Counted from the stretch's first letter, positions 2,418 through 63,802 are shown. The stretch: 64,000 nucleotides of DNA from an uncultured Gammaproteobacteria bacterium (GCA_964560005.1 CAZLKB010000001.1:13079-77078), one strand, 5' to 3'. A program made the numbers and translations. The notes: generated by a model not told the origin, from the sequence alone.

Positions 2418-2634
2418 ATTATTTTTTAATAATTTTTATATTATCATTATACGATTGCGCCGATACGCTGTCAAGATTAAAAGACAAAAATATTTTAGGC
2501 TGCCCCCCTGCTTGCCCGCCCTGGGTGGGGAATCCAGAGAGAGGCGGTTCTCTCCTCCAAATCATAATTCATATTGAAAATTAGGATATTTAGTTATTTT
2601 TTAAAAATTAAAAATTAAAAATTAAAAATTTTCT

Positions 2635-3360: not shown

Positions 3361-3831
3361 AAATTAAATTTTCAATTTCTAATTTTCAATTTCTAAACAA
3401 TTATATAATTTCTCAATTTTCAATTAATTTCATTTCTTAAACTCGTTCCAATTTTATTAAAAATCAGTGTTAATTCATGAGCTTCTTTCCATAATTACCT
3501 TAATTCATTAATTTCTTCCTTGTTGGTTTCAGCGATTAACTCTAACCAATATTTAGTTTCCTGAATTTCTTTTCTACAGATAAATATTTTATTTTTAAAA
3601 TCTTTTCTTGAAGTGGCGCCGTTGGCTTCGCAATAATTCGCTCCGACACTAGTGGCTGATCTGATTAGTTGCGACACTATATTATCGTTTATTGAATTCC
3701 TTTTAATTTTTATTAACAACCCGATTATTTTTTTACTAAATAATTTTGTTCTATCCTCCAAATCGTACTGCATAATTGAAAATTATTTCATTGGAAATTG
3801 TTTGAAAATTAGAAATTGAAAATTAAAAATT
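3361..3831. repeat. heptamer-built inverted repeat whose arms (3361..3428 and 3775..3831) enclose the four-helix-bundle gene
   Basis: The reverse complement of the right arm shares a perfect 23-nt run, AATTTTCAATTTCTAATTTTCAA, with the left arm. Further matches are AACAATT and AATTTTCAAT. The arms abut the start of the 2635..3360 gene and the stop of the 3832..5019 gene. Confidence 0.85.
3495..3773 (-). CDS. four-helix-bundle protein (23S rRNA intervening-sequence protein family), ended by an in-frame TAA
   Basis: LIRSATSVGANYCEANGATSRKDFKNKIFICRKEIQETKYWLELI is the family core motif. After TAA at 3495-3497 the same frame continues LWKEAHELTLIFNKIGTSLRNEIN to TGA at 3420-3422, which looks like the missing last helix. 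Confidence 0.8.
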   Translation of the reverse strand: MQYDLEDRTKLFSKKIIGLLIKIKRNSINDNIVSQLIRSATSVGANYCEANGATSRKDFKNKIFICRKEIQETKYWLELIAETNKEEINELR

Positions 3832-5019
3832 CTACTTATATCTTAAAGAAATCAGCGGATCGCTCTTGCTCGCCTGCCTGGCCGGAATCAGGCCGGTGAA
3901 AAATCCCACCAAGGTGGCCACCGCTAAAATAAAAATCAAAAACCAGCCGGGAAAATAAAACAGCGAAATCGCCAGGCCGCCCATTTTCTGGGCCAGGAAA
4001 TTAAATAAAAAATTAAACAGCTGGCCGGCGATAAATCCCAGCGCCACGCCGAAAACCCCGCCCAAAAAACCCATAATGGTTGATTCAAAGACAAACATCC
4101 AAAGAATATCCTGATTGGTCGCCCCGATTGATTTCATGATGCCGATTTCTTCCGTTCTTTCCATGAGCGTCACCACCATGGTATTGAACATGCCGATGGC
4201 GCTGACCATTAAGGCGATAGCTCCGAACAGGCCGAGAATTATCCTGACTACCTGAAAAGTTTTTTCCACTTGATCAATGATGTCGGTTAAGGCGGAAACT
4301 ATGAACCCGCCGCCGGTTAGGCTGTTCCTGACGTCGTTCATCGCCCGGCTGGAAGAGCATTTGACCTTCAGCCTGGAATAGGCGAAAGACGGGTAAAGAC
4401 TAGCCAAGGTTTTTTGGTTGGCGAAAACAATGATGTCTTTTTTGTCAACCAGTCCGGTAATTTTATAATCTATGGCCGCCCTTTCCCCCGAATCGCCGGT
4501 AAAAAATATTTTTATGCTTTCCCCCGCCATCGCTTCCGGAGCCTTTTCAAATACTTTGGCTAAAGTGTTGGAAATTATCACCCCGCCGCTTCCCTCGCCG
4601 ATCTCTTCTCTCTGAATGACTTTCAGGCCTTCCAGGGCGAAAAAATTTTCATCAACCGCGATTACCTTGGCGTCCGTCACCAAGCCGCTAAACTCTAATT
4701 GCCCGGTAGTTTCAAAAACCGGGCTAACCAGGCTGACACCGGGAATTTTACCGATGCCTAAAATCTCCGCCTGGCTGATGGCCGGGCTGGATTCTTTAGG
4801 ATAAACGTCTAAGGTTACGAGCGAATCGGCCGTGGTAATGGTTTCTAAAAGAGTCCTTTGGATGCCGAAGCCCAAGGCGACCAGAAATAAAATCGCGCCG
4901 ATACCCACGCTCATGCCTAAAATGGTCAAAAGCGTCCTGGAAGTTCTGGCCTTAAACATTCTGGTGGAAAATTTTAATAGATTCCAGAAACCCATAAAGT
5001 AATAATTTTCAATTCTCAA
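3832..5019 (-). CDS. ABC transporter permease, FtsX/MacB type
   Basis: The N-terminal TM helix RTLLTILGMSVGIGAILFLVALG is followed by a large extracytoplasmic domain and then three C-terminal TM helices containing EIGIMKSIGAT. The first 8 codons (MRIENYYF) are repeat-encoded, so the real start may be ATG at 4995. Confidence 0.85.
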   Translation of the reverse strand: MRIENYYFMGFWNLLKFSTRMFKARTSRTLLTILGMSVGIGAILFLVALGFGIQRTLLETITTADSLVTLDVYPKESSPAISQAEILGIGKIPGVSLVSPVFETTGQLEFSGLVTDAKVIAVDENFFALEGLKVIQREEIGEGSGGVIISNTLAKVFEKAPEAMAGESIKIFFTGDSGERAAIDYKITGLVDKKDIIVFANQKTLASLYPSFAYSRLKVKCSSSRAMNDVRNSLTGGGFIVSALTDIIDQVEKTFQVVRIILGLFGAIALMVSAIGMFNTMVVTLMERTEEIGIMKSIGATNQDILWMFVFESTIMGFLGGVFGVALGFIAGQLFNFLFNFLAQKMGGLAISLFYFPGWFLIFILAVATLVGFFTGLIPARQASKSDPLISLRYK

Positions 5020-5152
5020 TTTTCAATTTTCAAACAATGACCAATGGATTAATGATTAAATTTTCAAACATGTACTCAATTTAATTAATTGAAAATTAAA
5101 ACATTGAAAATTCATTGAAAATTAGAAATTGAAAATTGAAAATTTTAAATAT
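5004..5152. repeat. heptamer-built inverted repeat ('GAAAATT' subfamily) between the ABC ATPase and permease genes
   Basis: AATTTTCAATTCTCAATTTTCAATTTTCAAACAATG opposes CATTGAAAATTCATTGAAAATTAGAAATTGAAAATTGAAAATT. Confidence 0.85.
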
Positions 5153-5194
5153 TACTTCGTTAGTATCATTCACCCCGAAAGCCTGGCTGGATTC

Positions 5195-6802: not shown

Positions 6803-8434
6803 TTATGAGTTATGCGTTACCCGTCCTGCCAGCCCCAGCGCCAGCCATAAAAACAACACCCCGAAATGCAGGCTCCAAAGCCAATGGTCAAAAGACATTA
6901 GAATTACCAGGGAAATAAAAATAGAAATACTTACCATTGAATTTATAGCATAGTCGTTTTCGCTAATTCTAAATTTATAATCTTCCCCCAGCCGGGGACA
7001 TGCAATTTTTAATGAATTGTTTGAAAATTGGTTAATTGAAAATTGTTTGTCCTCCGAAGGCTTGCCGAAGGGGGGAAAATTGAAAATTATTAAACATACT
7101 ATCAGCCCAATAAATAAAATTAATCCTACTATCCCCGTCTCCGCCCAAACCAATAAGAACACATTATGCGCCGGCTGGTAATAATAGCTCGACTCGTCCG
7201 GCTTTAACTCATTATACTGGGCCAAAGTATAATTCCCTAGACCCGCGCCTCCGGCCCAATATTTTTTAATTATCGGCCAGGCATTTTTAATCGACTCAAT
7301 CCTTTCGCTGTTTGATTTAATTTCCAGTCGGTTCGGCGCGTTCGCGAAGCTTAAGGCGCTTGGCATCGCCGCGAAAGATTGAACCGGATATAGCCGCGTC
7401 ATAACTAAATTAGGGTACAGTAAAAATAAAACCAGCGCCACCGCTCCGATAATCAGCATAGCCTGCGCCAGCGCCTTCTCGGCCAATAGGTTTCTTTTGG
7501 CTAAAGACCACAGAACCAGCGCCAGCATGCCCAGCCCGGCTCCCAGCCAGGCGCTTCTGGAAAAGCTAAAAAATAAGGTAGCGGTAAAAATCACTAATAA
7601 TGACCAAGACAATATTTTAAAAATTTTAACATTGAAAATTGTTTGAAAATTATCAGTCGGCTGGTTAATTGAATTTTTTGATTTTTTTGAAAATTGAAAA
7701 TTGAAAATTGAAAATTGATTAAATTTTTCTAGCCTAACAACTTCCCCTACCAAAAGCAGTATGCCTACAGCCATCAGCCCGCCCAATATATTGGGGTGAT
7801 CCAGAGAGCCATAGGCTCTTAGCCATCTTTCGCCCATGCCGTCCGACGCCACCGTCTCAATAACCGACGTTCCCGGCTGGCTCGCCTGGTGCAAAGCCAG
7901 CCCGAGCCATTTGCTTTGAAATGTGGCTTGAAATAAAAACTGCCAGATCGCCAGCAAGGCCTGGGTCGCTATGCCGAAAAGCAAACTCCAAACCAGCTTT
8001 ACTCTATGGTATTGGCTGGCCGCCAACAGCCAGAATAAACCCGCGCCTAAAATCAGCCAGCCGAATTTATAAAACGCCAGCAGTTTGCTCAAAGCAAAAA
8101 AAATGGAAGTAGCCGAAACTAAAATTAAACCTCCAATCAGCAGCCAGGTTAATTGAAATTTTTTAATTGTTTGAAAATTAGATAATTGGAAATTGTTTAA
8201 AAATTGAAAATTAAAAATTAAAAATTTTTTTTGGAAAACCCGATAAATCACAAAAAGAAATAATAATAATATCAATAGTACATCCGTCCCATACAAACTG
8301 TATGTTCCATACTCCCACGGCCCGTTGTTTAAAACTCCCGGCTTAATGATCCAGCGGGTCTGGAGCGGCAGCGTGAAAACTAAGAGGTATAAGCCGTATT
8401 CAATTGTTTTATTTAAATACTTCATATAATACAA
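6803..8434 (-). CDS. O-antigen ligase/polymerase (Wzy_C-like) polytopic membrane protein
   Basis: Many TM helices, plus FSFSRSAWLGAGLGMLAL, which is typical of Wzy_C. Three repeat-encoded in-frame insertions are present (FNFQFLNNFQLSNFQ, FNQFSIFNFQFSKKSK, FSINQFSNNSLK). Confidence 0.7.
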   Translation of the reverse strand: MYYMKYLNKTIEYGLYLLVFTLPLQTRWIIKPGVLNNGPWEYGTYSLYGTDVLLILLLFLFVIYRVFQKKFLIFNFQFLNNFQLSNFQTIKKFQLTWLLIGGLILVSATSIFFALSKLLAFYKFGWLILGAGLFWLLAASQYHRVKLVWSLLFGIATQALLAIWQFLFQATFQSKWLGLALHQASQPGTSVIETVASDGMGERWLRAYGSLDHPNILGGLMAVGILLLVGEVVRLEKFNQFSIFNFQFSKKSKNSINQPTDNFQTIFNVKIFKILSWSLLVIFTATLFFSFSRSAWLGAGLGMLALVLWSLAKRNLLAEKALAQAMLIIGAVALVLFLLYPNLVMTRLYPVQSFAAMPSALSFANAPNRLEIKSNSERIESIKNAWPIIKKYWAGGAGLGNYTLAQYNELKPDESSYYYQPAHNVFLLVWAETGIVGLILFIGLIVCLIIFNFPPFGKPSEDKQFSINQFSNNSLKIACPRLGEDYKFRISENDYAINSMVSISIFISLVILMSFDHWLWSLHFGVLFLWLALGLAGRVTHNS

Positions 8435-8545
8435 ATTTTCAATTTCTAATTTTCAAACAATGCAATAATTCTTCAATTCTTAAATTAATTGAAAATTAAA
8501 TCATTAAAAATTGTTTGAAAATTGAGACTTGAAAATTGAAAATTA
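8434..8545. repeat. heptamer-built inverted repeat ('GAAAATT' subfamily)
   Basis: AAATTTTCAATTTCTAATTTTCAAACAATG opposes ATTGTTTGAAAATTGAGACTTGAAAATTGAAAATT. Confidence 0.85.
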
Positions 8546-8547
8546 TC

Positions 8548-9744
8548 TCACTTTACTAAAAATAAACCGCTAATCTTCTTTATATACTTCTCCCGATACT
8601 CCTCTCTCCTGTCATTGGCATGAAATTTTAAAACCTGATCGCTGATTACCACGCGAGTATCGCGGTTCATCAGCTCGGTTAAAATTTTCGGCAGCAACCT
8701 CAGCTGTAAAGCTTTAAACCAGGGTTCCAGGCCGCCGAAAAACATATCTGCCAACTCGTAATAAAATTTCCCCGGAGCTCTGCCGGCGTCGCGCCGCCTT
8801 GACCAATGTCCGGCCTGTTCGCCCGCCGGCTTGTCCGCCAAATCCGTCAGCTGACGGAGTAAAGCGGACCGATTAGGCAGGCAACCGTTCAGCCAGCTGT
8901 TGACTCCGATAAATTTTTCGTAAACCCCCTCCTGCTGATAAAATGGCGTTAACCCGGCCAGCCAATAAATAAAATATATATCTTCCTTATTAACCCCCTT
9001 TTCGGCCCAAGGCCGATCCTTGCCTACCGGACAAGCAGGCGCCTCGGGTGGAAACGTGGGGTTGGGGAGATTTTCCTCTTTTGCCCCCTTGATAAAGGCT
9101 CGTCTCGCCGTAGCGTAGCCGGGGCGGAGGGATGAAGGGGGATTATTTTTTGTTTGTAGCATCAAGGCGCCTAAATCCAGAGCCTCTTCACTGATAAAAA
9201 AACTCAAACAAATTTTATCTTTAAATTTGCCTAAACCCGGCCTTAAGCCAAGCATCTTAACTAGCGCGACACAGCAGAATCGCGTCAGCCAGATTCTCTT
9301 AGCTTGAGTAATTATAAATAAATCAATATCTCCCTCTTCTTTTAAATTATGGCTGCCCATTAAATTTCCCAGCGCGATCATTTTTATCCAAGGAATCAAT
9401 TTAAAAAGTCTAGCGACTTTAAGGGCGCGTTTAAATTTTCTGTCGGTTACATTATAACGAGCCAGCCGCACCTTAAGGATAGCTTCGCGCCCGGCCAAAA
9501 AATAAAAACCGTTTTTTTGTTCAACGATATTCTTTCCCCCTTGATAAAGCGGGACAAAGGGGGATTTTCCAATGAGAGCATCTAGTTCTTTGACCACTTC
9601 AAAAAAACCGCACTTTAAACCCAGTCCCTGCCAGATCTCAAAAGCAGTCAAGGGAAAGTCAAACATATCAAAATAGGCAACCGTTTTCACGATTGCCTCC
9701 CTAATATTTAAAAATTGTTCGGAATTAATATCTTTAAAGCGCAT
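8548..9744 (-). CDS. nucleotidyltransferase-fold (Pol-beta superfamily) domain protein, hypothetical
   Basis: [21 protein letters not shown] fits the G-S...D-x-D nucleotidyltransferase motif. The track start at 9798 lies in repeat sequence ([18 protein letters not shown]), so I prefer ATG at 9744 (MRFKDIN). The gene contains GC-rich palindromic in-frame insertions. Confidence 0.5.
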
Positions 9745-9750
9745 GTTTAT

Positions 9751-9960
9751 GATGTAAAATGTAAATCTCAAAATGTAAAATGACAATTTAAAATACAAAA
9801 TAAAAATTCTAAATTCTAATATCTAAATTCTAAATAAAAAGTAATGAATATTGGTTTTTTATTTGAAATTTAGATATTGGAATTTGTTTGGATTTTAGGA
9901 TTTATAATTTTAAATTTTTCATTGTCATTTTACATTTTGAGATTTACATTTTACATTTTA
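9751..9960. repeat. nested inverted repeat: 'TGTAAAA' arms enclosing 'CTAAATT' arms
   Basis: Outer arms GATGTAAAATGTAAATCTCAAAATGTAAAATGACAAT / ATTGTCATTTTACATTTTGAGATTTACATTTTACAT. Inner arms AATTCTAAATTCTAATATCTAAATTCTAAAT / ATTTGAAATTTAGATATTGGAATTT. Confidence 0.9.
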
Positions 9961-10030
9961 TTTTTCCTAGAGCTAACCTCTAAGTTTAATTCAAACTCGC
10001 AATGGCAAAAAATTGGCAAACTAAAAAAGT

Positions 10031-11128: not shown

Positions 11129-11245
11129 AAATTGAGCTGATTTTTATATGATTACAAAGATGTTTTTAATAATTTTAGTTTAACAATTAAAATTGATTAG
11201 CGCAACTGCCATGCCACCCCCTTTATTAAAGGGGCCAAACTAATC

Positions 11246-11274
11246 TTGACTCCTAACTAAAAATATACTAAAAT
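11246..11274 (+). promoter_or_regulatory. sigma70-like promoter of pilin cassette 1
   Basis: TTGACT (11246-11251), an exactly 17-nt spacer, then TAAAAT (11269-11274). An almost identical copy lies at 12318..12346. Confidence 0.65.
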
Positions 11275-11280
11275 TTTGCC

Positions 11281-11389
11281 AGCATCAATTAAGACGCCTG
11301 ATTTGGCCGGTGGCCGAATCGGGTTGCTAAAAGCAAGGGTAAAAACCTACTCGGTCTTGATTGATTTAGGAGAGAAAGTTTAAAAATTA
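11281..11389 (+). promoter_or_regulatory. conserved structured 5' leader of pilin cassette 1 (candidate cis-regulatory RNA)
   Basis: CAATTAAGAC (leader 5' end) can pair with GTCTTGATTG just before the SD AGGAGAG. This long-range pairing encloses two hairpins: CCTGATT..GGCC-GGT-GGCC..AATCGGG and TTGC-TAAAA-GCAA. A near-identical leader lies at 12353..12457. Confidence 0.5.
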
Positions 11390-12028
11390 ATGAAAACAAA
11401 AACGGCAGAAAATCCCGGATTCACCTTGGTGGAAATCATGATAGTCGTCGCGATCCTCGGCCTGCTCGCCGCCATCGTCGCCCCCAACTTCGTCCGGGCG
11501 CGCTTAGTCAGCCAAAAAAACGGCTGCATCTTTAATCTTAAAAAGATCGAGATCGCCAAAGCCTCCTTCGTCCTGGACAGGCGAATGGCCGTGGGCATGG
11601 CGGTGTCTATGGATGACCTCTACAGCACGAATCGGCCGGTTTGCCCGGGCGGCGGCAAGTATTCGCCCGGCCAAGTCGGCGTTAATCCCTCCTGCACTTA
11701 CACGGGGCATGCTCTGGAAGGATCCGAATCTCCGCAAAATCAAGAGGCGCAAGAGATTCGGATTGGAAATGGCAGCTACATCAAGATCGGAAGGATAGCG
11801 ACCGAAAACGGCACCATGAAATTCACCCTTAAGACAATCGAGCGGTTTGAAACCGCCCATCCTGATTTAAAGATCACCGGCCGGCAGGTGGTATTCTCTG
11901 CCTCAAATGTGGTTATGGGAATTTTACTTTGGCATGAGCCGAGAACCCGCGCCATCGCGCTGGAAAAACCGACCCGGCAACGACCCGCGCCTCTCGGAAC
12001 CCGCACCCTCTCGGCGCAAGCCCGCTGA
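11390..12028 (+). CDS. type IV pilin-like protein (prepilin N-terminal cleavage/methylation domain) with a ~100-aa C-terminal extension
   Basis: NPGFTLVEIMIVVAILGLLAAIV is the classic G/FTL-x-E prepilin motif. It is followed by C-x-x-NLKKIE and a C-terminal Cys pair (CPGGGKYSPGQVGVNPSC). GC-richer than the surrounding genes. Confidence 0.8.
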   Translation: MKTKTAENPGFTLVEIMIVVAILGLLAAIVAPNFVRARLVSQKNGCIFNLKKIEIAKASFVLDRRMAVGMAVSMDDLYSTNRPVCPGGGKYSPGQVGVNPSCTYTGHALEGSESPQNQEAQEIRIGNGSYIKIGRIATENGTMKFTLKTIERFETAHPDLKITGRQVVFSASNVVMGILLWHEPRTRAIALEKPTRQRPAPLGTRTLSAQAR

Positions 12029-12086: not shown

Positions 12087-12137
12087 TCTTGCAAAGGGGA
12101 AAGCAACCTTTAAAGATTAATTGCCCCCTTTAAGACC

Positions 12138-12300
12138 ACCATGGGGGCTTGGGGGTCCGAGCTGAGCGCCAAGGCGCGTGCGCAAGAATGTCAAAGAAGC
12201 AATAGCGAATTGAGGACCCCCAAAACTTCTTTGGATACTTTCTTAGTTATAAGAAAGTATCCCCTAGCGGAGCGTCGTGAACGAATTAACTGATAAATGG
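12138..12300. repeat. ~165-nt structured repeat, copy a (copies b and c at 29244 and 63617)
   Basis: Sequence ACCAtGGGGcTTGGGGGTCCGAGCTGAGCG...CTAGCGAATTGAGGACCCCC, then a perfect hairpin GGATACTTTCTTAGTTATAAGAAAGTATCC, then CCTAGCGGAGCGTCGTGAACG. Confidence 0.85.
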
Positions 12301-12317
12301 CGGGGTTTTAATGCGCC

Positions 12318-12346
12318 TTGACTCATAACTAATAATGTACTAAAAT
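12318..12346 (+). promoter_or_regulatory. sigma70-like promoter of pilin cassette 2
   Basis: TTGACT (12318-12323), a 17-nt spacer, then TAAAAT (12341-12346). Confidence 0.65.
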
Positions 12347-12352
12347 TTTGCC

Positions 12353-12457
12353 AGAATCAATCAAGGCGCCTGATTTGGCCGGTAGCCGAATCGGGTTGCA
12401 AAAAGCAAGGGTTAAAAACCTAACTCTATCCTGATTGATAAAGGAGAAAAAATCTTT
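12353..12457 (+). promoter_or_regulatory. conserved structured 5' leader of pilin cassette 2
   Basis: My hand alignment of promoter plus leader against copy 1 shows 8 substitutions and one 1-nt indel over about 108 nt. The first 90 coding nt differ at 29 positions. Confidence 0.5.
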
Positions 12458-16416: not shown

Positions 16417-16440
16417 AATTAAAGAATAATTCAGAATCAC

Positions 16441-16745
16441 CAACGGAATTTGGGGTGACGAACTGCCCGTCTCGCGTCGGCGCGAGCCGAGACGGAAACG
16501 CCAGAGTTCGAGAATTTTACAATGCGAGCATAGAAAAATTTAGGATTAGATTCGGCCTAAAATTTACTTACAAACATTTTCCTTCGGTCGTTACTGATGA
16601 AAATTTTGTTGGAAATTTTAGGCCGAATCCTTAAATTTTTCTCTAGCGAGCGACTTTTTGGTTACTTTTTCTAGAAAAAGTAACCCTAGCGGAGCGAAAT
16701 AAACCTAGCGAAGCGTCACGGACGATTTTACTAACCAATGGGCTG
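16441..16745. repeat. composite structured repeat downstream of glyQS (includes the 133-nt long hairpin at 16521..16653)
   Basis: The composite begins with a TTGGGGTGACGAACTG...CAGAGTTCGAGAA module. It continues with a long hairpin nearly identical to 20791..20924 and then the hairpin GGTTACTTTTTCTAGAAAAAGTAACC. It ends with two CCTAGCG(G/A)AGCG motifs. Confidence 0.8.
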
Positions 16746-16802
16746 TAAATAATAAATATTCGACAATTAAACCTAGATTGCGGCTCGGAGGCCGCAATGA
16801 CA

Positions 16803-18128
16803 TTACGATAGTTTTCCCTTAAACCACTCCTTGAGCTTCTCTATTTTCACCCTCTCCTGCTTCATACTATCTCGGTCGCGCACGGTCACATCATCTTTTT
16901 CCAGCGAATCAAAATCAATGGTCAGGCAAAACGGCGTGCCGATTTCATCCTGGCGGCGATAGCGCTTACCGATATTGCCGTTATCGTCAAACTCGCAGAC
17001 ATAATCTTTTTTTAGTAGGTCAAATACGGCTTTGGCTTTTTTTACCAGCTCCGGCTTATTTTTTAATAAAGGAAATACCGCGATTTTTACTGGTGAGAGC
17101 CAATGCGGAAATTTCATTACCGTGCGAATTTCCTCTTTCACTTTTTCTTCCTTATAGGCTTCGCAAAGTACGGCCAAAACCGTGCGTTCCACGCCTAAAG
17201 ACGGCTCAATCGCATGGGGAATAACTTTTTTCCCGGTTTCGTCAGTATAGGTTAAATCCGCTCCGGAAAATTTAGAGTGCTGTCTTAGGTCGTAATCGGT
17301 GCGATATGCCAGACCGTACAATTCTTTCTGGCCGAAAGGAAATTTATACTCAAAATCAATGGTTTTTTTGGAATAATGAGCCCGCTCACCGTCCGGCACG
17401 TCTAATTCATGAATATTATTTTTTATATCCAGCCCTAGTTCTTTCATCCAGCTTATCATTTCTTTGCGCCACATCTCAAAAACCTTTTGCCATTCTTTAT
17501 CAGTCTTCGGTTCAGCGATAAAATATTCTATTTCCATCTGTTCAAACTCGCGCGTGCGGAAAACGAAATTACCCGGCGTGATTTCATTTCTAAAAGCTTT
17601 GCCGATCTGGCCGATGCCGAAAGGCAGTTTCGGCCGAATCGTATCCATGATATTTTTAAAATTAACGAAAATGCCCTGCGCCGTCTCCGGCCTTAAATAA
17701 GCCGCGTTCACGCTCTCTTCGGCCGGACCGATAAAAGTTTTAAACATTAAATTAAACTGCCTGGGCGCGGACAGCTCGCCGCCGCAATTCGGGCATTTCT
17801 TCTCGTCTTCGAGCTGGTCAATCCTAAATCTGTTTTTGCATTTCTTGCATTCCACCAGCGGGTCGCTAAAATTATCCTGATGCCCCGAAGCTTTCCAGGT
17901 TTCCGGATTCATAATGATGGCCGCGTCCAGCCCGACCATGTCCTCGCGCTCCTGGACGAACTTTTTCCACCATCTCTGCTTGATATTATTTTTTAACTCC
18001 ACGCCGTAAGGCCCGTAATCCCAGGAATTGGCCAGCCCGCCGTAAATCTCCGAATCGGGAAAAATAAATCCCCGACGCTTGCACAGAGAGACGATTTTGT
18101 CCATGGTAACATTGTTTTTGTTAGTCAT
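16803..18128 (-). CDS. glyQS: glycyl-tRNA synthetase (dimeric class II type)
   Basis: MDKIVSLCKRRGFIFPDSEIYGGLANSWDYGPYGVELKNNIK, and class II motifs such as FRNEITPGNFVFRTREFEQMEIEYF. Confidence 0.95.
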   Translation of the reverse strand: MTNKNNVTMDKIVSLCKRRGFIFPDSEIYGGLANSWDYGPYGVELKNNIKQRWWKKFVQEREDMVGLDAAIIMNPETWKASGHQDNFSDPLVECKKCKNRFRIDQLEDEKKCPNCGGELSAPRQFNLMFKTFIGPAEESVNAAYLRPETAQGIFVNFKNIMDTIRPKLPFGIGQIGKAFRNEITPGNFVFRTREFEQMEIEYFIAEPKTDKEWQKVFEMWRKEMISWMKELGLDIKNNIHELDVPDGERAHYSKKTIDFEYKFPFGQKELYGLAYRTDYDLRQHSKFSGADLTYTDETGKKVIPHAIEPSLGVERTVLAVLCEAYKEEKVKEEIRTVMKFPHWLSPVKIAVFPLLKNKPELVKKAKAVFDLLKKDYVCEFDDNGNIGKRYRRQDEIGTPFCLTIDFDSLEKDDVTVRDRDSMKQERVKIEKLKEWFKGKLS

Positions 18129-18152: not shown

Positions 18153-18268
18153 ATGCAAAATGTAAATCTCAAAATGTAAAATGACAGTTTAAAATGTAAA
18201 ATGTCAAATTAGAAATTTTAAATTTTGCATTGTCATTTTACATTTTGAGATTTTAACTTTACATTTTT
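18153..18268. repeat. AT-rich inverted repeat, 'TGTAAAA' subfamily
   Basis: ATGCAAAATGTAAATCTCAAAATGTAAAATGACAG opposes TGTCATTTTACATTTTGAGATTTTAACTTTACAT. The right arm supplies the last codons of the DedA ORF (VKNVKLKSQNVK). Confidence 0.85.
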
Positions 18269-18868
18269 CACATGCCTCCTCACATACCAAACCGCTCCAA
18301 CTACTATAACAATTCCTATCACAAAATCAAATTTATGGAAATACGGACTTAAAATATTCCAATTGTCGCCCAGCTTCTTGCCGATATAAGCCAAGCCTAA
18401 GCACCAGAGCAGAGAACCTAAAAAAGTATAAATTATAAACTTGGTAAAATTCATTTTGGCGATGCCAGCTGGTAGGGAAATAAAAGTCCGCACCACCGGC
18501 ATAAGCCGCGAGAAAAAAATAGCGCTAGATCCGTATTTATTAAAAAAATTATCAGAGATTGTTAAATCATGATGGGAAATTAAAATATACTTTCCATATT
18601 TTTCTATAAAACCGCGTCCACCCCAGAGGCCGACCGCATAAGCCACTGCTGAACCCACGACGCAGCCCAAAGCTCCGGCTAAGCTTACACCCAGTAAGCT
18701 AAACTGCCCTCTGGCCACCAAAAAGCCGGCGAAAGGCATAATCACCTCCGATGGCAAAGGAATGCAGGCGCTCTCAATCGCCATCATTAAACCAACGCCA
18801 AATAAACCAAGTTTAGAAATACTATTAATGATGAACGATGTCACAACGCCGATTATTGCTGTTACCAT
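18233..18868 (-). CDS. DedA family membrane protein
   Basis: LPSEVIMPFAGFLVARGQFSLLGVSLAGALGCVVGSAVAYAVGLWGGRGFIEKYGKY is the typical DedA/SNARE-associated core. Confidence 0.85.
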   Translation of the reverse strand: MVTAIIGVVTSFIINSISKLGLFGVGLMMAIESACIPLPSEVIMPFAGFLVARGQFSLLGVSLAGALGCVVGSAVAYAVGLWGGRGFIEKYGKYILISHHDLTISDNFFNKYGSSAIFFSRLMPVVRTFISLPAGIAKMNFTKFIIYTFLGSLLWCLGLAYIGKKLGDNWNILSPYFHKFDFVIGIVIVVGAVWYVRRHVKNVKLKSQNVK

Positions 18869-18870
18869 AG

Positions 18871-18980
18871 TAAATTTAAAATTGAAAAATCAAAGTTTAA
18901 AATGACAGTTTAAAATGTAAAATTAATAATTTTTCATTTTACATTGTCATTTTGCATTTTAAAATTTACATTTTCCATTT
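18871..18980. repeat. AT-rich inverted repeat, 'TGTAAAA' subfamily
   Basis: AAATGACAGTTTAAAATGTAAAAT opposes ATTTTACATTGTCATTTTGCATTTTAAAATTTACATTTT, between the ArgRS stop and the DedA start. Confidence 0.8.
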
Positions 18981-18982
18981 TT

Positions 18983-20770
18983 TTACATCTCCTCCACCGT
19001 TTCAATCCCCAATAACCCTAATCCATTCTTTATCACCTGGCTGACCGCCATAATCAGCGCCAATCTGGCCGCCTTAATCTCGTTTTTTGCCTTTAGCACC
19101 GGCACGCTGTGGTAATAATCATTAAATTCCTGCGCCAACTCAAATAAATACTTGGCAATTTCGCTCGGATCATAATTTCTCCCGGCCAAAGCCACAATCT
19201 CCGGATATTTCGCCAGCTTATTCACCAACACCGCCTCCTTCGCTTCTATTAAATTCTCAAATTTCAAATTTCTAATTTCTGACTTCTGACTTCTGACTTC
19301 TGACTTCTTAATTATTGAATTTATCCTGGCTCCCGTATATTGCAAATAGGCCGCCGTATAGCCATCAAATCTTAGGGCTTGCTCAAGATCAAAAGTAATA
19401 ATCTTGTCCGCGCTAACTTTAATCATTTCAAATTTCAAAGCGCCAACCACGATCTTTTCCACTACCTGGTTCAATTTTTCTTTCGGCCAATTTTGATGTC
19501 TTTTCCTGGTTTCTAAAGCCGCCCTCTCCAGAGCCTCCTGGCGCAGATCTTCGTAAGTTATGACATTGCCGGTGCGCGAAGACATCATGCCATCAGGCAA
19601 TTTAACGAATTCATAGCTTAAATGCTTAGTCTCTTGTTTAAAGCCCAAGAGTTCCAAAACCTTAAATAATTGCTTAAAATACAGGCTCTGCCTGACATCA
19701 ACTACGTAAATTGATTTATCTATTTTATATTTTTCAAATTTTTCCATGGCCAGCGGCAGATCGGCCACCGGATAAAGCGCCGTGCCGTCGCTTCTTAAAA
19801 TTACCAAAACGCCTAGATTATATTTATTTAGATCGGCGATAATCGCGCCCTGGCTTTTTATTAAAAATTCTTTCTTATACAGATTGGCGACTATACTTAA
19901 GCCTTTTTCTATCAGCTCATTTTCATAAAAAATGTGTTCAAACCTGACGCCTAACTGCTTATAAATTTCTGAAAAGCCATCAAGGCTCCATTTTCTGGTT
20001 TTCTGCCATAATTTATACTCCTTACCCGTCCGGTTTTCAATTTTTTTCATGATTTCACCTACTTCAATTTTAGCCGTTTCGTTATTTTCCAACTCCTGGC
20101 AAGCCCGAACATAAACTTTTCCCAAAAAGTAACCCTTATTGCCTCCCCTTATATGCTCCCCTCCTTGATAAAGGGGGGCTAGGGGGTATTTTCCTTTTTT
20201 AACGCCTTTAGCAAAGGAGGGTTGGGGAGATTTATAAAATTTTTCCAGCGCCCATAGCGTCTTGGACACATGGATACCAAAATCATTAATATAGGAGACT
20301 GGCATGGCCTTAAAGCCGTTAGCAGCTAAAATTTTGGTTACCGCGTCGCCGTAGCTGATATTGCGCAAATGACCGACATGATATTCTTTGTGAGTGTTGG
20401 CATTGGAAAATTCCACCATGACTTTTTTGTTTTTCCCGTCCTTATTTAAACCATATTCTGCCTTCTCTTCCAGCACTTCTTCAATAATTCCTTCCGCTAA
20501 TTTGGCTTTATTAAAAGTAAAATTAATAAACGGCCCAATCGCCTTGGTAGCCACCACGGTATCGTTCAGCGCCACTTTCCTCATTAATATTTCGGCCATT
20601 TCTACCGCGCTTTTATTAAACTGCTTGGCGATAGTATAGCAAGGCAGGCTTAAATCGCCGAATTCCGGCTTGGGCGGATAGACTAAATCCGCCGGCTTAA
20701 CTAGCTTTTTTTTCAGCGCCGTATTTATGGCGTCGGCAATATTCTCTTTTATTTTTTCCAGAGTATTCAT
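18983..20770 (-). CDS. argS: arginyl-tRNA synthetase
   Basis: ANTHKEYHVGHLRNISYGD (HIGH region) and the C-terminal anticodon-binding region. Two in-frame repeat insertions lie at 19251..19312 and 20141..20240. Confidence 0.93.
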   Translation of the reverse strand: MNTLEKIKENIADAINTALKKKLVKPADLVYPPKPEFGDLSLPCYTIAKQFNKSAVEMAEILMRKVALNDTVVATKAIGPFINFTFNKAKLAEGIIEEVLEEKAEYGLNKDGKNKKVMVEFSNANTHKEYHVGHLRNISYGDAVTKILAANGFKAMPVSYINDFGIHVSKTLWALEKFYKSPQPSFAKGVKKGKYPLAPLYQGGEHIRGGNKGYFLGKVYVRACQELENNETAKIEVGEIMKKIENRTGKEYKLWQKTRKWSLDGFSEIYKQLGVRFEHIFYENELIEKGLSIVANLYKKEFLIKSQGAIIADLNKYNLGVLVILRSDGTALYPVADLPLAMEKFEKYKIDKSIYVVDVRQSLYFKQLFKVLELLGFKQETKHLSYEFVKLPDGMMSSRTGNVITYEDLRQEALERAALETRKRHQNWPKEKLNQVVEKIVVGALKFEMIKVSADKIITFDLEQALRFDGYTAAYLQYTGARINSIIKKSEVRSQKSEIRNLKFENLIEAKEAVLVNKLAKYPEIVALAGRNYDPSEIAKYLFELAQEFNDYYHSVPVLKAKNEIKAARLALIMAVSQVIKNGLGLLGIETVEEM

Positions 20771-20790: not shown

Positions 20791-20924
20791 AATGCGAGCA
20801 TAGAAAAATTTAGGATTAGATTTGGCCTAAAATTTATTTACAAACATTTTCCTTTCGGTCGTTTCTGATGAAAATTTTGTTGGAAATTTTAGGCCAAATC
20901 CCTAAATTTTTCTCTAGCGAGCGA
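20791..20924. repeat. 133-nt long-hairpin repeat, copy 2 (copy 1 at 16521..16653)
   Basis: GAGCATAGAAAAATTTAGGATTAGATTTGGCCTAAAATTT... opposes ...AAATTTTAGGCCAAATCCCTAAATTTTTCTCTAGCGAGC. It is followed by the hairpin GCCGCTTTTTCTAAAAAAGCGGC. Confidence 0.85.
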
Positions 20925-20969
20925 TTTTTGCGCCGCTTTTTCTAAAAAAGCGGCCCTGCCCGGAGGGCC

Positions 20970-21779
20970 CTAGCGGAGCTCCGCTTTCTCCACCCTATCA
21001 ATATTTCTTCCTAAAAACTTCTGCCCCAGTTCTTTAAATTTTTTTACATCATCCGTAGTATAAAAAATTAATTTTCCATTCCTGCCTAGTTTCTTTTCTA
21101 CCTCATCATGCCGCTTCAGGTAATCCTTCAATTTCACGGCCGCTACTTCGGCCGGATTAACAATTTTCACATTTTTCCCCATGATTCTTCTAATATCTTT
21201 ATCCATTAGCGGATAGTGCGTACAGCCTAAAATCAGCGTGTCAATTCGCTTAACTTTGAGCGGGTGCAAATATTTTTTTAAAATCATCCTGGTTTCCGGC
21301 TTCCCGATCCAGCCTTCTTCCGCTAGAGGCACAAGCAAGGGGCAAGCTTGCTCAAAAATTTCCAAATCGCTTCGTAATTTTTCCAGTTCTTTTTTATAAA
21401 CGCCGGAATTTATAGTGGCTCTAGTGCCGATGATGCCCAGTTTATGGTAACGGCTTAACTTTATCGCCTCTTCCACGATCGGCACCACCACGCCCAGCAC
21501 GCGCTTAGCCGGGTGATTTTTCGGCAGATATTCCCGTTGTATTCTCTTTAAAGCCTCGGCCGAAGCCGTATGGCAGGCGATAATAACCAGTTCTGCTTCT
21601 TGTTTAAATAAAAAATCAACCGCCTGCCTGGTATATTGATAAACAACTTCGGCGGATTTGTTGCCGTATGGCGTTCTGGCATTATCGCCTAAATAAATAT
21701 AATCATAATCCGGCAGCACTTTTAAAAATTCTTTCAGCACTGTCAGCCCGCCGAAGCCCGAATCAAAAACTCCGATCAT
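20970..21779 (-). CDS. murI: glutamate racemase
   Basis: GVFDSGFGGLTV, IIACHTASA and LGCTHYPL motifs. The track start at 21833 lies inside a repeat arm, so I prefer ATG at 21779 (MIGVFDSG). Confidence 0.93.
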   Translation of the reverse strand: MIGVFDSGFGGLTVLKEFLKVLPDYDYIYLGDNARTPYGNKSAEVVYQYTRQAVDFLFKQEAELVIIACHTASAEALKRIQREYLPKNHPAKRVLGVVVPIVEEAIKLSRYHKLGIIGTRATINSGVYKKELEKLRSDLEIFEQACPLLVPLAEEGWIGKPETRMILKKYLHPLKVKRIDTLILGCTHYPLMDKDIRRIMGKNVKIVNPAEVAAVKLKDYLKRHDEVEKKLGRNGKLIFYTTDDVKKFKELGQKFLGRNIDRVEKAELR

Positions 21780-24211: not shown

Positions 24212-24333
24212 AGTTTTATTCTAACATATATTGAAATTTCAGCAAATTTTAGGGCTGCGCCCGGGTTGCCTGTTTCCGGAGCTTTGGTATAATGAAATCT
24301 AAACGAAGCGCATTTAATTCTTACGATATATAA

Positions 24334-24415
24334 TGCGAATACTACAAATTATATTCAAATACTACAAAAAAATATTTATCGGATATTTGTAGTATTCGCA
24401 TTCCATTTGTAACAT
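24334..24415. repeat. AT-rich inverted repeat, 'ACTACAAA' subfamily, in the divergent nagB/activase promoter region
   Basis: TGCGAATACTACAAATT and TTCAAATACTACAAAAA oppose ATATTTGTAGTATTCGCA and CCATTTGTAACATT. Confidence 0.8.
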
Positions 24416-24428
24416 TAGGATTATACTT

Positions 24429-29215: not shown

Positions 29216-29243
29216 AAATACTTTTTAATTACATTTCAATACC

Positions 29244-29414
29244 ACCAATGGGGTTTGGGGTGCCGAGCTGAGCGACATAGCGCGAGGGATAAAAGTCATT
29301 AAGGGCACTAGCGAATTGAGGCACCCCACCCCGCAAAATGCGGGGTTGGTTACTTTTTAGTTATAAAAAGTAACCCTTAGCGGAGCGTCACGGATATATT
29401 TACTGATAAACGGC
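29244..29414. repeat. ~165-nt structured repeat, copy b
   Basis: Same architecture as 12138..12300. The outer stem here is GGGGTGCC...GGCACCCC (compensatory relative to GGGGGTCC...GGACCCCC) and the hairpin is GGTTACTTTTTAGTTATAAAAAGTAACC. Confidence 0.85.
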
Positions 29415-29477
29415 TAAAAAATAATAATAACTTGATGATTAGCCAGGATTCCAGTCGAAAGTTGCTATAACATTGAA

Positions 29478-32795: not shown

Positions 32796-32840
32796 CTTGG
32801 CTCAATATTCACTTTATCAAAATTACCCTTATTTTGCAAG

Positions 32841-35444: not shown

Positions 35445-35464
35445 ACTTAGGTAATATAAATTTA

Positions 35465-63579: not shown

Positions 63580-63616
63580 AAATTTTATTTAAAAAATAAT
63601 ATTTATTTTTAGAATC

Positions 63617-63770
63617 ACCACGGGGGTTTGGGGGTCCGAGCTGAGCGCCAAGGCGCGAGAAAAGAAAGTAATTAAAGGCACTAGCGAATTGAGGACCCCC
63701 AAAACTTTTTGCTTACTTTTTAGTTATAAAAAGTAAGTCCTAGCGAAGCGTCACGAACTAATTTACAAAT
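63617..63770. repeat. ~165-nt structured repeat, copy c
   Basis: ACCACGGGGGTTTGGGGGTCCGAGCTGAGCGCCAAGGCGCG...CACTAGCGAATTGAGGACCCCC, then the hairpin CTTACTTTTTAGTTATAAAAAGTAAG, then TCCTAGCGAAGCGTCACGAAC. Confidence 0.85.
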
Positions 63771-63802
63771 AAAAAGAAGGAAATAATAATCATCTGTTTA
63801 AG

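What the first reader, a model, noticed from the sequence alone, without database searches (positions are those of the whole stretch)
12138..12300. ~165-nt structured repeat in three copies with compensatory base changes in two helices
The copies lie at 12138-12300, 29244-29414 and 63617-63770, with a variant at 16441-16520 plus 16660-16745. They share four parts in order:
- ACCA-GGGG-TTGGGG.
- An outer helix.
- A perfect terminal hairpin.
- The motif C(C/T)TAGCG(G/A)AGCGTC.

The outer helix is GGGGGTCC/GGACCCCC in copies a and c but GGGGTGCC/GGCACCCC in copy b, a double compensatory change. The hairpin reads GATACTTTCTT/AAGAAAGTATC, GTTACTTTTT/AAAAAGTAAC and CTTACTTTTT/AAAAAGTAAG in the three copies, with GCCGCTTTTT/AAAAAGCGGC at 20938-20960. 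The stem stays paired although its sequence differs.

Preserved pairing across diverged copies argues for selection on structure, either as RNA or as cruciform or ssDNA. I cannot match it to any ncRNA family I know.
Basis: seen in the sequence. Interest (0 to 1): 0.6.

Follow-up and report, generated by a model that had tools for sequence, protein, structure and literature searches.

The report
Structured intergenic repeat family in a Patescibacterium
A roughly 150-175-base non-coding element that folds into a three-armed structure is scattered between housekeeping genes of an uncultured Patescibacteria genome; it matches no catalogued RNA family and is most likely a small, structure-dependent mobile repeat rather than a regulator of particular genes.

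Summary
Three full copies lie at 12128-12305, 29234-29417 and 63607-63780. There is a rearranged copy at 16430-16745 and a fragment at 20791-20985. A further full copy sits on an unrelated 1.1-kb metagenome contig. Full copies are only 71-83% identical, yet every helix stays paired, with double compensatory changes. Invariant bases cluster in unpaired loops.

It pairs only on the minus strand (two G.U pairs there, A-C mismatches on plus). Its end pair covaries in all five copies that have both ends.

Rfam has no match. No transposase or reverse transcriptase is in the window. The element is absent from syntenic loci of four related genomes, so the copies are lineage-specific insertions. There are no terminal inverted repeats or target duplications. 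All five window copies share one orientation relative to GC skew.

Best reading: a new structured interspersed repeat (bcr1/BOX/ERIC-like in kind), possibly spread through a single-stranded intermediate and co-transcribed with flanking operons. A new functional RNA class is not excluded. The insert in the rearranged copy is a separate 120-nt hairpin repeat conserved across related genomes.

The parts
12128..12305 (.). Copy a, a full element. On the + strand: YCACCA 12136-12141; P1 12151-12158 / 12214-12221; P2 12166-12177; hairpin Pa 12233-12245 / 12250-12262; TAGCGGAGCGTC 12265-12276.
   Evidence: nhmmer E = 2.9e-55; CM R1 scores 159.5 bits on the minus strand; coordinates. It lies between two + strand pilin-like genes, just after the terminator hairpin of 11390-12028.
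29234..29417 (.). Copy b, a full element with an extra GC hairpin at 29329-29345 between P1 and Pa. YCACCA 29242-29247; P1 29257-29264 / 29320-29327; Pa 29348-29359 / 29364-29375; TAGCGGAGCGTC 29378-29389.
   Evidence: nhmmer E = 3.1e-54; CM 157.4 bits; coordinates. It lies between the convergent 1580-aa gene (+) and ValRS (-). The extra hairpin is flagged as terminator-like on +.
63607..63780 (.). Copy c, a full element. TCACCA 63615-63620; P1 63630-63637 / 63693-63700; Pa 63712-63722 / 63727-63737; TAGCGAAGCGTC 63741-63752.
   Evidence: nhmmer E = 2.8e-54; CM 179.4 bits; coordinates. It lies between two minus-strand genes: one ending about 63803 and the ComEA-like 60631-63579.
16430..16745 (.). 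Copy d, a rearranged and chimeric copy. It keeps the 5' part (TCACCA 16437-16442, GGGGTGAC 16452-16459). It has its own GC hairpin at 16467-16495 and hairpin X at 16521-16640. Three TAGCG(N)AGCG motifs lie at 16644, 16687 and 16706. Pa is at 16660-16671 / 16674-16685. The 3' strand of P1 is missing.
   Evidence: nhmmer hits two pieces, 16430-16486 and 16654-16742; CM partial hit of 22.7 bits. It fills the ProRS-to-small-ORF spacer, which is only 24-47 bp in relatives.
20791..20985 (.). Fragment f. It contains hairpin X (20791-20912); TAGCGAGCGA at 20915-20924; hairpin GCCGCTTTTT/AAAAAGCGGC at 20932-20954; a small GC hairpin at 20952-20969; and TAGCGGAGC at 20971-20979, which overlaps the racemase stop codon. 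It has no YCACCA end and no P1.
   Evidence: 83% mean column identity to the right half of copy d; repeat families D14 and D18; coordinates.
12136..12141 (-). 3' strand of closing helix P0 in copy a (UGGUGG on the minus strand). It pairs with CCGCUA, the complement of 12265-12270. The equivalent positions are 29242-29247 with 29378-29383 (b), 63615-63620 with 63741-63746 (c), and 16437-16442 with 16706-16711 (d).
   Evidence: 6 of 6 standard pairs on the minus strand in a, b, c, d and e, including two G.U pairs. On the plus strand there are two A-C mismatches. The end pair is C-G in a and b, and U-A in c, d and e. Minus-strand MFE folds of b and c find this helix unprompted.
16521..16640 (.). 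Hairpin X, a separate ~120-nt near-palindromic repeat nested in copy d. A second copy lies at 20791-20912.
   Evidence: The two window copies are 92% identical. Copies in relatives are 85-91% identical: L008 17522-17640, L013 4661-4777 and 3141-3255, L010 7660-7774. There are 46 predicted pairs, 9 of them with changes on both sides.

Best explanation
This is a lineage-specific family of small, non-coding, structure-constrained interspersed repeats. It is the same kind of thing as bcr1, BOX or ERIC elements, but it is unrelated to them in sequence and has not been described in Patescibacteria.

The fold. Each full unit of about 150 nt forms a three-way junction:
- a closing helix P0 (YCGCUA[GG] with [CC]nUGGUGR);
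- an AT-rich 11-13-bp hairpin, Pa;
- a GC-clamped arm, P1.
The large internal loop of P1 carries invariant sequences (UCAAUUCGCUA and CGCUCAG on the minus strand), a small hairpin P2 and a variable pyrimidine-rich stretch. The strand that can form all helices is the window's minus strand.

Shown by the data:
- The repeat is real.
- The fold is kept by compensatory change despite 17-29% divergence between copies.
- Conservation is concentrated in loops.
- The element is absent from orthologous spacers in relatives.
- It has no coding capacity, no terminal inverted repeats and no target duplications.
- All window copies share one orientation.

Inferred:
- The units were inserted into intergenic DNA by a machinery supplied in trans. 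That machinery reads a folded single strand. The uniform orientation places the P0-competent strand on the lagging-strand template, as seen for HUH/Y1-transposase elements.
- Once inserted, the units are co-transcribed in 3' UTRs or intercistronic spacers of leading-strand operons. There the fold would act on mRNA 3'-end stability or processing.

The rearranged copy d and fragment f show modular shuffling with a second hairpin repeat, X.
For: 1. Repeat and fold.
- nhmmer E = 1e-54 to 1e-55 for a-c and 1.6e-40 for the metagenome copy e.
- Pairwise identity of full copies is 71-83%.
- 93.5% of pair cells are paired, against 40-52% when partners are slid. Four pairs have double changes. The covariation score is 0.194 against 0.074 in shuffles, reached by 1 of 500 shuffles.
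- Pa has different but perfectly complementary arms in a, b, c/e, d and f.

2. Closing helix P0.
- P0 has 6 of 6 pairs in five copies.
- Its end pair is C-G in two copies and U-A in three.
- That split cuts across the groupings given by P1 (a=c; b~d) and by Pa (c=e; b~d). This suggests more than one double change.

3. Uneven conservation. 88 of 158 columns are invariant and they cluster in runs (permutation p = 0.003). The longest run is CCTCAATTCGCTA, in a loop.

4. Insertions.
- There is no hit in the syntenic loci L008, L010, L011 or L013, either by nhmmer or by the covariance model.
- In L013 the same aaRS genes abut or overlap.
- The ProRS-to-small-ORF spacer is 24-47 bp in relatives and about 390 bp here.
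- Copy e sits in a different context, between CysRS and Dus. That CysRS has no relative above 58% identity in 5.8 billion proteins.

5. Orientation. All five window copies are on one strand. GC skew is negative across the whole window. IS200/IS605 elements are known to insert in a replication-determined orientation into the lagging-strand template (PMC5027513).

6. Context. In the minus-strand sense the copies follow ValRS, ProRS, the racemase and an unnamed gene (window), and CysRS (contig L012). They lie in 3' UTR or intercistronic positions.

7. Precedent. bcr1 is about 155 bp, has a non-conserved distribution between related strains, is transcribed, and keeps its RNA fold through compensatory changes. 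ERIC elements downstream of genes modulate mRNA decay (PMC3184786).

8. A second hairpin repeat, X, colonises the same operon spacers in four related genomes. This clade's intergenic DNA is therefore demonstrably invaded by such elements.
Against: - No mobilising enzyme was seen. The 30 ORFs scanned in the window are housekeeping genes. The rest of the 299-kb contig could not be reached.
- There are no terminal inverted repeats, no target-site duplications and no clear conserved target sequence, so classical MITE membership fails.
- The two main hairpins are unlike each other, whereas IS200/IS605 left and right ends resemble each other.
- Copies differ by 17-29%. That is old for a recently active repeat, and it equally fits paralogous functional RNA genes.
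- Strand evidence is mixed. P0 favours the minus strand. However, the outermost pair of P2 in copy e and of Pa in copies c and e is G.U on plus. Hairpin X folds 7-9 kcal/mol better on plus.
- The orientation statistic rests on five copies in one window, and copy a is antisense to its flanking genes.
- Only six copies from two sources exist, so covariation has little statistical power.
- There are no expression data.
Confidence: 0.5

Rival explanations
1. The copies are paralogous genes or units of a new class of functional structured RNA. This could be a trans-acting small RNA, a protein-recruiting RNA or a self-cleaving ribozyme. Its three-way junction and invariant internal loops would be the functional core. 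Dispersal would be secondary.
For: - Stems vary with compensation while unpaired loops are invariant. This is the pattern typical of riboswitch aptamers and ribozymes.
- Copies are 17-29% diverged yet intact.
- P0 contains G.U pairs, which is meaningful for RNA.
- A -10-like box (TAAAT/TAAAAT) lies about 7-10 nt upstream of the conserved GUGACGCU on the minus strand in most copies (read).
- No known family matches.
Against: - The consensus scan finds no convincing promoter on the minus strand and no terminator for the core.
- There is no consistent neighbouring gene class.
- The element is absent from all four related genomes examined and was found on only one other contig in the single metagenome scan. 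That is unusual for a core functional RNA.
- Rearranged and truncated copies (d and f) look like decaying repeats.
Confidence: 0.25
2. The element works as double-stranded or cruciform DNA. It would be a cluster of protein-binding sites: the Pa palindrome as an operator, and the repeated TAGCG(N)AGCG boxes as sites for a nucleoid, partition or recombination protein.
For: - Pa is a perfect DNA palindrome of up to 26 bp in copy d.
- The TAGCG(N)AGC box occurs 2-3 times per element and, apart from two TAGCGTAGC matches inside coding sequence, only there.
Against: - Both arms of Pa change together between copies (GATAC, GTTAC, CTTAC, GCCGC). That keeps pairing but not sequence, the opposite of what a sequence-specific operator needs.
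- P1 and P0 pair across 55-130 nt, which cruciform extrusion or dimeric protein binding does not explain.
- All copies share one orientation.
Confidence: 0.08
3. The element is a transcription punctuation module, meaning a complex terminator or an outward promoter, that was duplicated into several spacers.
For: - On the + strand, P1 is followed by a U-rich tract.
- Copy b carries a canonical GC hairpin flagged as terminator-like.
- TTTACW-N17/18-AATAAT promoter-like sites lie at the + strand 3' end of copies b and c.
- Copies a and b sit right after gene terminators.
Against: - The scan finds no terminator in copies a, c or d, and no promoter in a or d.
- Counts are within shuffle expectation for the a, b and d regions. 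Only the c region exceeds it, with 4 promoter-like sites against 0.9 expected.
- A + strand terminator or promoter would oppose the minus-strand operons that host copies c, d and f.
- A 55-nt internal loop with invariant sequence is not a terminator feature.
Confidence: 0.07
4. The copies are neutral relics of old segmental duplications with no present constraint. The apparent covariation would reflect shared ancestry of a few copies.
For: - Only 4-6 sequences are available. The tool warns that related sequences can beat shuffles without any structure.
Against: - The flanks share nothing beyond the element.
- Invariant columns cluster significantly.
- Every helix is kept in every full copy, with 7 cells changed on both sides. 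The only unpaired cells that are not alignment artefacts are two in copy e (one in P1, the end pair of P2) and one each in copy b's P2 and P0 extension.
- A near-identical architecture occurs on an unrelated contig.
Confidence: 0.05

Closest known systems
bcr1 (Bacillus cereus group interspersed repeat, ~155 bp)
   Same: - Similar size and intergenic location.
- Several copies per genome, with a distribution not conserved between related genomes.
- No coding capacity.
- A multi-stem fold kept by compensatory base changes (PMC3184786).
   Different: - bcr1 is flanked by 5-bp direct repeats and folds into two independent stem-loops.
- This element has no detectable flanking duplication.
- It folds into a three-way junction closed by a helix that contains G.U pairs.
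- It has no sequence similarity to anything searched, and it occurs in Patescibacteria.
BOX elements (Streptococcus pneumoniae) and ERIC (Enterobacteriaceae)
   Same: - Small structured repeats in transcribed intergenic DNA.
- BOX is modular (boxA, variable boxB, boxC), like the variable hairpin-plus-TAGCG(N)AGCG modules here (2 in full copies, 3 in d, 2 in f).
- ERIC elements downstream of genes alter mRNA decay (PMC3184786).
   Different: - There is no sequence relationship.
- ERIC is one long imperfect palindrome with terminal inverted repeats. This element has none.
- No partner insertion sequence is known here. BOX is thought to be mobilised by ISStso1.
IS200/IS605-derived non-autonomous elements (PATEs) and REP/BIME-RAYT systems
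   Same: - No terminal inverted repeats and no target duplications.
- Hairpins that matter on one strand only.
[quoted passage not shown]
   Different: - The two hairpins are dissimilar, whereas IS200/IS605 ends resemble one another.
- No Y1/HUH transposase is seen in 64 kb.
- No conserved target tetranucleotide could be defined.
- The ends pair with each other (P0), which is not a feature of those elements.
Riboswitch or ribozyme-type three-way-junction RNAs in Rfam
   Same: - A closing helix.
- Variable stems with covariation.
- Invariant internal-loop nucleotides.
   Different: - No Rfam model matches, even at E up to 10.
- There is no consistent downstream gene.
- There are several 71-83% identical copies per genome at non-orthologous sites.

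Membership tests
Classical bacterial MITE | Terminal inverted repeats | tested here: not met
   The conserved ends (+ strand) are TTYARAAYCACCA... and ...TTTACWGATAAA, with no inverted complementarity. The only end-to-end complementarity is the 6-bp P0, which matches 4 of 6 as DNA.
Classical bacterial MITE | Target-site duplication (direct repeats) flanking each copy | tested here: inconclusive
   No direct repeats are visible at the limits of conservation in copies a-e. Exact boundaries cannot be fixed, because no empty orthologous site aligns at nucleotide level.
Classical bacterial MITE | Small size, no transposase, several dispersed copies, presence/absence polymorphism between relatives | tested here: met
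   The element is 150-185 nt. No ORF is conserved: the frame breaks in copy b on + and in copy e on - (read). There are five copies in 64 kb. It is absent from L008, L010, L011 and L013.
Classical bacterial MITE | A parent insertion sequence with the same ends | not testable with these tools
   Only the 64-kb window is readable. The 299-kb NCBI contig is not in the contig index. There is no transposase among 30 ORFs.
IS200/IS605-type PATE or REP-RAYT | Strand-specific subterminal hairpins; no TIR or TSD | tested here: met
   Pa lies about 35 nt from one end and P1 about 20 nt from the other. No TIR or TSD is detectable.
IS200/IS605-type PATE or REP-RAYT | Left- and right-end hairpins similar to each other (bound by the same TnpA) | tested here: not met
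   Pa is an AT-rich perfect 11-13-bp hairpin. P1 is an 8-bp GC clamp around a 55-nt loop.
IS200/IS605-type PATE or REP-RAYT | Orientation fixed by replication direction (active strand on the lagging-strand template) | tested here: inconclusive
   5 of 5 window copies are on one strand, and GC skew is negative across the whole window. The sample is only five copies, and replication direction is inferred from skew alone.
IS200/IS605-type PATE or REP-RAYT | Y1/HUH transposase or RAYT encoded in the genome | not testable with these tools
   None is found in the window.
Any Rfam 15 family (including T-box, hammerhead, twister-sister, 6S, HEARO) | Covariance-model score at or above gathering, or at least a suggestive E-value | tested here: not met
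   At gathering score the window has only two tRNAs. With E up to 10, copy a gives three noise hits. Copy d gives only miRNA-precursor noise on hairpin X.
T-box leader | Located upstream of an aminoacyl-tRNA synthetase or amino-acid gene, with a specifier and an antiterminator | tested here: not met
   In the strand sense where GGUGGUA appears, copies b, d and e lie downstream of ValRS, ProRS and CysRS. The genes downstream of the copies are unrelated to one another. There is no T-box model hit.
Retron non-coding RNA (lead from memory: Ec86 msr CCCUUAGCGAGAGG resembles CCCUUAGCGGAGCG) | Adjacent reverse transcriptase; a1/a2 repeats closing the msr-msd unit | tested here: not met
   There is no RT in the window. 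On the + strand, where the resemblance lies, the ends do not pair: there are two A-C mismatches.
Integron attC site | R''/R' core sites (RYYYAAC ... GTTRRRY), cassette spacing, integrase | tested here: not met
   The ends are YCACCA and TAGCGR. Copies are 4-34 kb apart among housekeeping genes, and there is no integrase.
Intrinsic terminator | Compact GC-rich stem with a 3-8-nt loop, followed by a U tract | tested here: not met
   The scan flags only the extra hairpin of copy b. It flags nothing in the core of a, c or d.

The most novel reading that the evidence does not exclude
The element is a previously unknown class of structured RNA. It would be a ~150-nt three-way junction with invariant internal loops, read from the strand opposite to the one first noticed, that is both mobile and functional in Patescibacteria. 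For example, it could be a self-processing or protein-recruiting RNA that punctuates operon transcripts. It would be spread by a structure-reading, single-strand-specific machinery not yet described in this phylum.
Probability: 0.2. Interest if true: 0.65.

Novelty: new member of a known kind. Interest (0 to 1): 0.38.

Why it matters
Patescibacteria have tiny, streamlined genomes, and almost nothing is known about their non-coding RNA or their mobile DNA. A full-text search found no paper that describes MITE- or REP-type repeats in this phylum.

Here, housekeeping operons that are gap-free in a relative carry several structured inserts. That shows even these reduced genomes are colonised by small structure-dependent repeats.

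The element gives a concrete, testable fold, including a helix that discriminates between the two strands. If it proves to be RNA-active, it would be a new RNA class in a phylum with few characterised regulators. If it is a single-strand DNA element, it points to an HUH-type mobilisation system that should be sought in the rest of the genome.

Tried and rejected
Searches for more copies:
- Genome-contig scan with GAGCTGAGCG-N25-55-AGCGAATTGAGG gave six hits, all chance matches lacking every other feature. About 2 were expected. The window's own genome is not in that collection.
- The viral-contig collection gave 0 hits with each of two patterns.
- blastn (distant mode) against phage and plasmid collections gave no match.
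- The single metagenome scan found one real extra copy.

Attempts to reach more of the two genomes:
- I tried to extend the window by looking up edge proteins. The NCBI contig is not indexed, although identical proteins are listed.
- I tried to reach more of the genome that carries copy e through its CysRS. The best relative is 58% identical.
- The closest UvrA relative (84% identity) has no DNA on file.

Readings considered and rejected:
- Small ORF. On the + strand a 51-codon frame in copy a stops after 7 codons in copy b. On the - strand a 17-20-codon frame is broken by an indel in copy e.
- Riboswitch or T-box. The copies sit on the wrong side of the synthetase genes, there is no common downstream gene, and no model hit.
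- Retron RNA. There is no RT, and the ends do not pair on that strand.
- attC site, and the single-strand origin CS-6 box (TAGCGT, recalled from memory). Only a 5-nt resemblance exists, and it lies on the strand not exposed on the lagging-strand template.
- K-turn, hammerhead core and G-quadruplex. The required motifs are absent on inspection.
- Shine-Dalgarno role for GGUGAU. It lies 22-35 nt from the next start codon.
- An alternative + strand closing helix (GGGGYUU with RAGCGUC, predicted). It is weak, bulged and broken in copy d. It also competes with the UUU/AAA extension of P1.

Folding energy does not discriminate between the strands for the full copies.

Full report
1. CHECK OF THE OBSERVATION

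A profile HMM built from the three full copies recovers them as follows:
- 12129-12305, 63607-63780 and 29234-29417, all on the + strand, at E = 3e-55 to 3e-54;
- the split variant as two pieces, 16430-16486 and 16654-16742.

The 13-mer CTAGCGRAGCGTC, with up to 2 mismatches, occurs six times. All six are on + and all lie inside these elements. Shuffled sequence gives 1.8.

Two points needed correction:
- The hairpin quoted at 20938-20960 is at 20932-20954. It belongs to a sixth, partial copy (f, 20791-20985).
- Copy f shares a 120-nt hairpin (X) with the variant copy d.

The outer helix P1 reads GGGGGTCC/GGACCCCC in copies a and c and GGGGTGCC/GGCACCCC in copy b. Hairpin Pa is perfectly paired with different arms in every copy.

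2. CONTEXT

The window is a chromosomal stretch of an uncultured Patescibacterium.
- The best named UvrA relatives are Falkowbacteria, Parcubacteria and 'Patescibacteria group' MAGs. The closest is 84% identical.
- Thirty ORFs were scanned. All are housekeeping genes: pilins, UvrA/B/C, RmuC, the Pro-, Arg-, Tyr- and Val-tRNA synthetases, DHDPS, ABC/MacB transporter parts, and others. None is a transposase, integrase or reverse transcriptase.

All copies are intergenic:
- Copy a follows the terminator of a pilin gene.
- Copy b lies between a 1580-aa gene (+) and ValRS (-).
- Copy d lies between ProRS and a small ORF.
- Fragment f lies between the racemase and ArgRS.
- Copy c lies between an unnamed gene and a ComEA-like gene.

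3. RELATIVES AND OTHER SOURCES

Rfam has no match:
- At gathering score it finds only two tRNAs.
- Permissive scans of copy a and copy d give only noise.

Collection searches gave little:
- A two-block pattern scan of 185,579 species genomes gave six chance matches.
- Viral contigs, phage records and plasmid records gave nothing.
- One metagenome scan, using a 3' pattern shared by all four window copies, found a single real extra copy. This is copy e, on the 1.1-kb contig Ga0182022_1129235. It lies between a CysRS gene and a Dus gene. That CysRS has no relative above 58% identity in the protein collection.

Syntenic loci of four related genomes (UvrA 81-82% identical) contain no copy, by nhmmer or by a covariance model.
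- In L013 the ProRS-ArgRS-racemase-TyrRS-ValRS genes abut or overlap.
- The ProRS-to-small-ORF spacer is 24-47 bp in L011 and L008 but about 390 bp here.

The copies are therefore lineage-specific insertions into an ancestrally compact gene array.

4. THE FOLD

The full copies are only 71-83% identical to each other.

Folding the complementary strand of copies b and c produced a closing helix that I had not specified. I call it P0.
- In all five copies that have both ends, P0 has 6 of 6 standard pairs on the minus strand. Two of these are G.U pairs.
- On the plus strand those two positions are A-C mismatches.
- The terminal pair is C-G in copies a and b, and U-A in copies c, d and e.
- This split cuts across the similarity groups defined by P1 (a=c; b~d) and by Pa (c=e; b~d). 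More than one double change, or recombination, is therefore implied.

The resulting model is a three-way junction:
- P0 (6 bp, extended by 2 bp);
- Pa (11-13 bp);
- P1 (8 bp, plus a UUU/AAA extension).
P1 encloses invariant loops (UCAAUUCGCUA and CGCUCAG on the minus strand), a 4-bp hairpin P2 and a variable pyrimidine-rich stretch.

Counts on four full copies:
- 93.5% of pair cells are standard pairs, against 40-52% when partners are slid.
- Four pairs have changes on both sides. One P1 pair shows U-A, G-C and C-G.
- The covariation score is 0.194 against 0.074 for shuffles, reached by 1 of 500 shuffles.

Most 'unpaired' cells in Pa are a register artefact. Copy a carries one extra, compensated base pair.

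Invariant columns number 88 of 158, and they cluster (permutation p = 0.003). The longest run falls in an unpaired loop. Selection therefore acts on both the structure and specific unpaired sequences.

A covariance model of this fold (R1) finds no further copy in the window with filters off.

5. WHICH STRAND, AND WHICH NUCLEIC ACID

The evidence is mixed.

For the minus strand:
- P0 pairs only on the minus strand.

For the plus strand:
- The outermost pairs of P2 in copy e, and of Pa in copies c and e, are G.U on plus.
- Hairpin X folds 7-9 kcal/mol better on plus.

Neutral:
- Total folding energies of the full copies are similar on both strands.

Context that bears on the question:
- GC skew is negative across the whole window. 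The plus strand is therefore probably the lagging strand.
- The P0-competent strand then lies on the leading-strand sequence, which is the lagging-strand template. That strand is also the sense strand of most flanking genes.
- Copy a keeps the same absolute orientation although its neighbours are on the other strand. This fits a replication-linked bias slightly better than a transcription-linked one.
- IS200/IS605 elements show exactly such a bias (PMC5027513).
- With five copies this is only suggestive.

6. MODULARITY AND THE SECOND REPEAT

On the plus strand, TAGCG(N)AGC boxes follow hairpins: Pa in every copy, and X in d and f. There are 2 boxes in full copies, 3 in copy d and 2 in fragment f.

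Copy d keeps the 5' end, Pa and the 3' end. It has lost the 3' strand of P1 and carries hairpin X in the P1 loop.

X is an independent element:
- It is 85-91% identical in L008, L010 and L013 (two copies in L013), always in spacers of the same gene neighbourhood but in different spacers.
- It has 46 predicted pairs, 9 of them with compensatory double changes.
- In the relatives it is bracketed by GCGAGC...GTGGCGAG and by longer, copy-specific palindromic flanks.

The same spacers in relatives also hold other hairpin repeats of the TGTCATTGCGAG...CTCGCAATGACA type. Invasion of intergenic DNA by hairpin repeats is thus a general trait of this clade.

7. INTERPRETATION

The best-supported reading (confidence about 0.5) is a new family of structured interspersed repeats. 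It is the kind of element represented by bcr1, BOX and ERIC (PMC3184786).

The steps have different standing:
- Insertion is shown.
- Mobilisation through a folded single strand by a trans-acting enzyme is inferred. The inference rests on the lack of TIRs and TSDs, on strand-specific pairing and on uniform orientation.
- A post-insertion role in mRNA 3'-end stability or processing is speculative.

Classical MITE membership fails on terminal repeats. IS200/IS605-type membership fails on hairpin similarity and cannot be tested for the transposase.

The main rival (about 0.25) is a new functional RNA class. The loop-over-stem conservation pattern and the age of the copies are what one expects of a ribozyme or a protein-binding RNA. 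Its rarity and its absence from relatives argue against this.

The DNA-operator, terminator/promoter and neutral-relic readings are each unlikely, for the reasons given under the rival explanations.

8. VERDICT

The element belongs to no catalogued family. Full-text searches found no description of small repeats in Patescibacteria.

It is a new member of a known kind and is of moderate interest. A one-in-five chance remains that it is a genuinely new RNA class.

Noticed in passing
window 16521-16640 and 20791-20912; L008 17522-17640; L013 3141-3255 and 4661-4777; L010 7660-7774: Hairpin X is a ~120-nt near-palindromic repeat conserved at 85-91% identity across four Patescibacteria genomes whose UvrA proteins are only ~81% identical. 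It lies in different spacers of the same gene neighbourhood. Nine of its 46 pairs show compensatory double changes. In the relatives it is bracketed by GCGAGC...GTGGCGAG and sits inside longer palindromic flanks whose sequence is unique to each copy. It may be a more widespread element than the one under study.
   Followed up: partly
L008 16470-16660; L011 7990-8150 and 12120-12400; window 16778-16806: Relatives carry other intergenic hairpin repeats with ends of the type TGTCATTGCGAG...CTCGCAATGACA or ATTGCGG...CCGCAATGACA, in the same operon spacers. The window has one after ProRS. L012 and L011 also show ATTCCCGCG...CGGGAAT-type hairpins.
   Followed up: no
window 11245-11345 and 12317-12417: A 101-nt block, 91% identical between its two copies, precedes both pilin-like genes (11390 and 12458). 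It contains a good promoter match (TTGACT-17-TAAAAT at 12318-12346) followed by a GC-rich, potentially structured leader (GCGCC...GGCGCC, GGCCGGTAGCCGAATCGGG).
   Followed up: partly
window 2572-2643, 3773-3844, 5086-5157, 8168-8239, 8486-8557, 9752-9973, 18153-18281, 18861-18995, 32734-32805, 48423-48548, 51792-51866: Many spacers upstream of genes consist of phased A/T-rich units of 6-8 nt (GAAAATT, TAAAATG, TTTTACA and similar). They form at least nine overlapping repeat families. The same style is seen in relatives (for example L008 16450-16520). They may be curved-DNA or promoter-upstream arrays.
   Followed up: no
window 29478-32657 (minus strand): The ValRS is 1059 aa and carries a Ser_hydrolase domain (PF06821, residues 461-616) inserted in the synthetase. 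Orthologues in relatives are 879-963 aa.
   Followed up: no
window 23474-29171: Compared with the gap-free TyrRS-ValRS junction of L013, this genome has two extra genes there. One is a glucosamine-6-P isomerase-like gene. The other is a 1580-aa BcrAD_BadFG + DUF2229 (CoA-enzyme activase-type) protein on the opposite strand. Repeat copy b lies at their end.
   Followed up: no
window 35372-35541: Adjacent tRNA-Ile(UAU) and tRNA-Val(GAC) genes lie on the + strand. A UAU-anticodon isoleucine tRNA is uncommon in bacteria.
   Followed up: no
window 29329-29345: Copy b alone carries an extra perfect GC hairpin (CCCCGC-AAAAU-GCGGGG) between P1 and Pa. It is terminator-like on the + strand and shows that modules can be added inside the junction.
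   Followed up: partly
L012 1-740: The CysRS reading frame on the metagenome contig shifts frame twice. This is likely assembly or sequencing error, so single-base details of copy e (for example its P1 mismatch) should be treated with caution.
   Followed up: no
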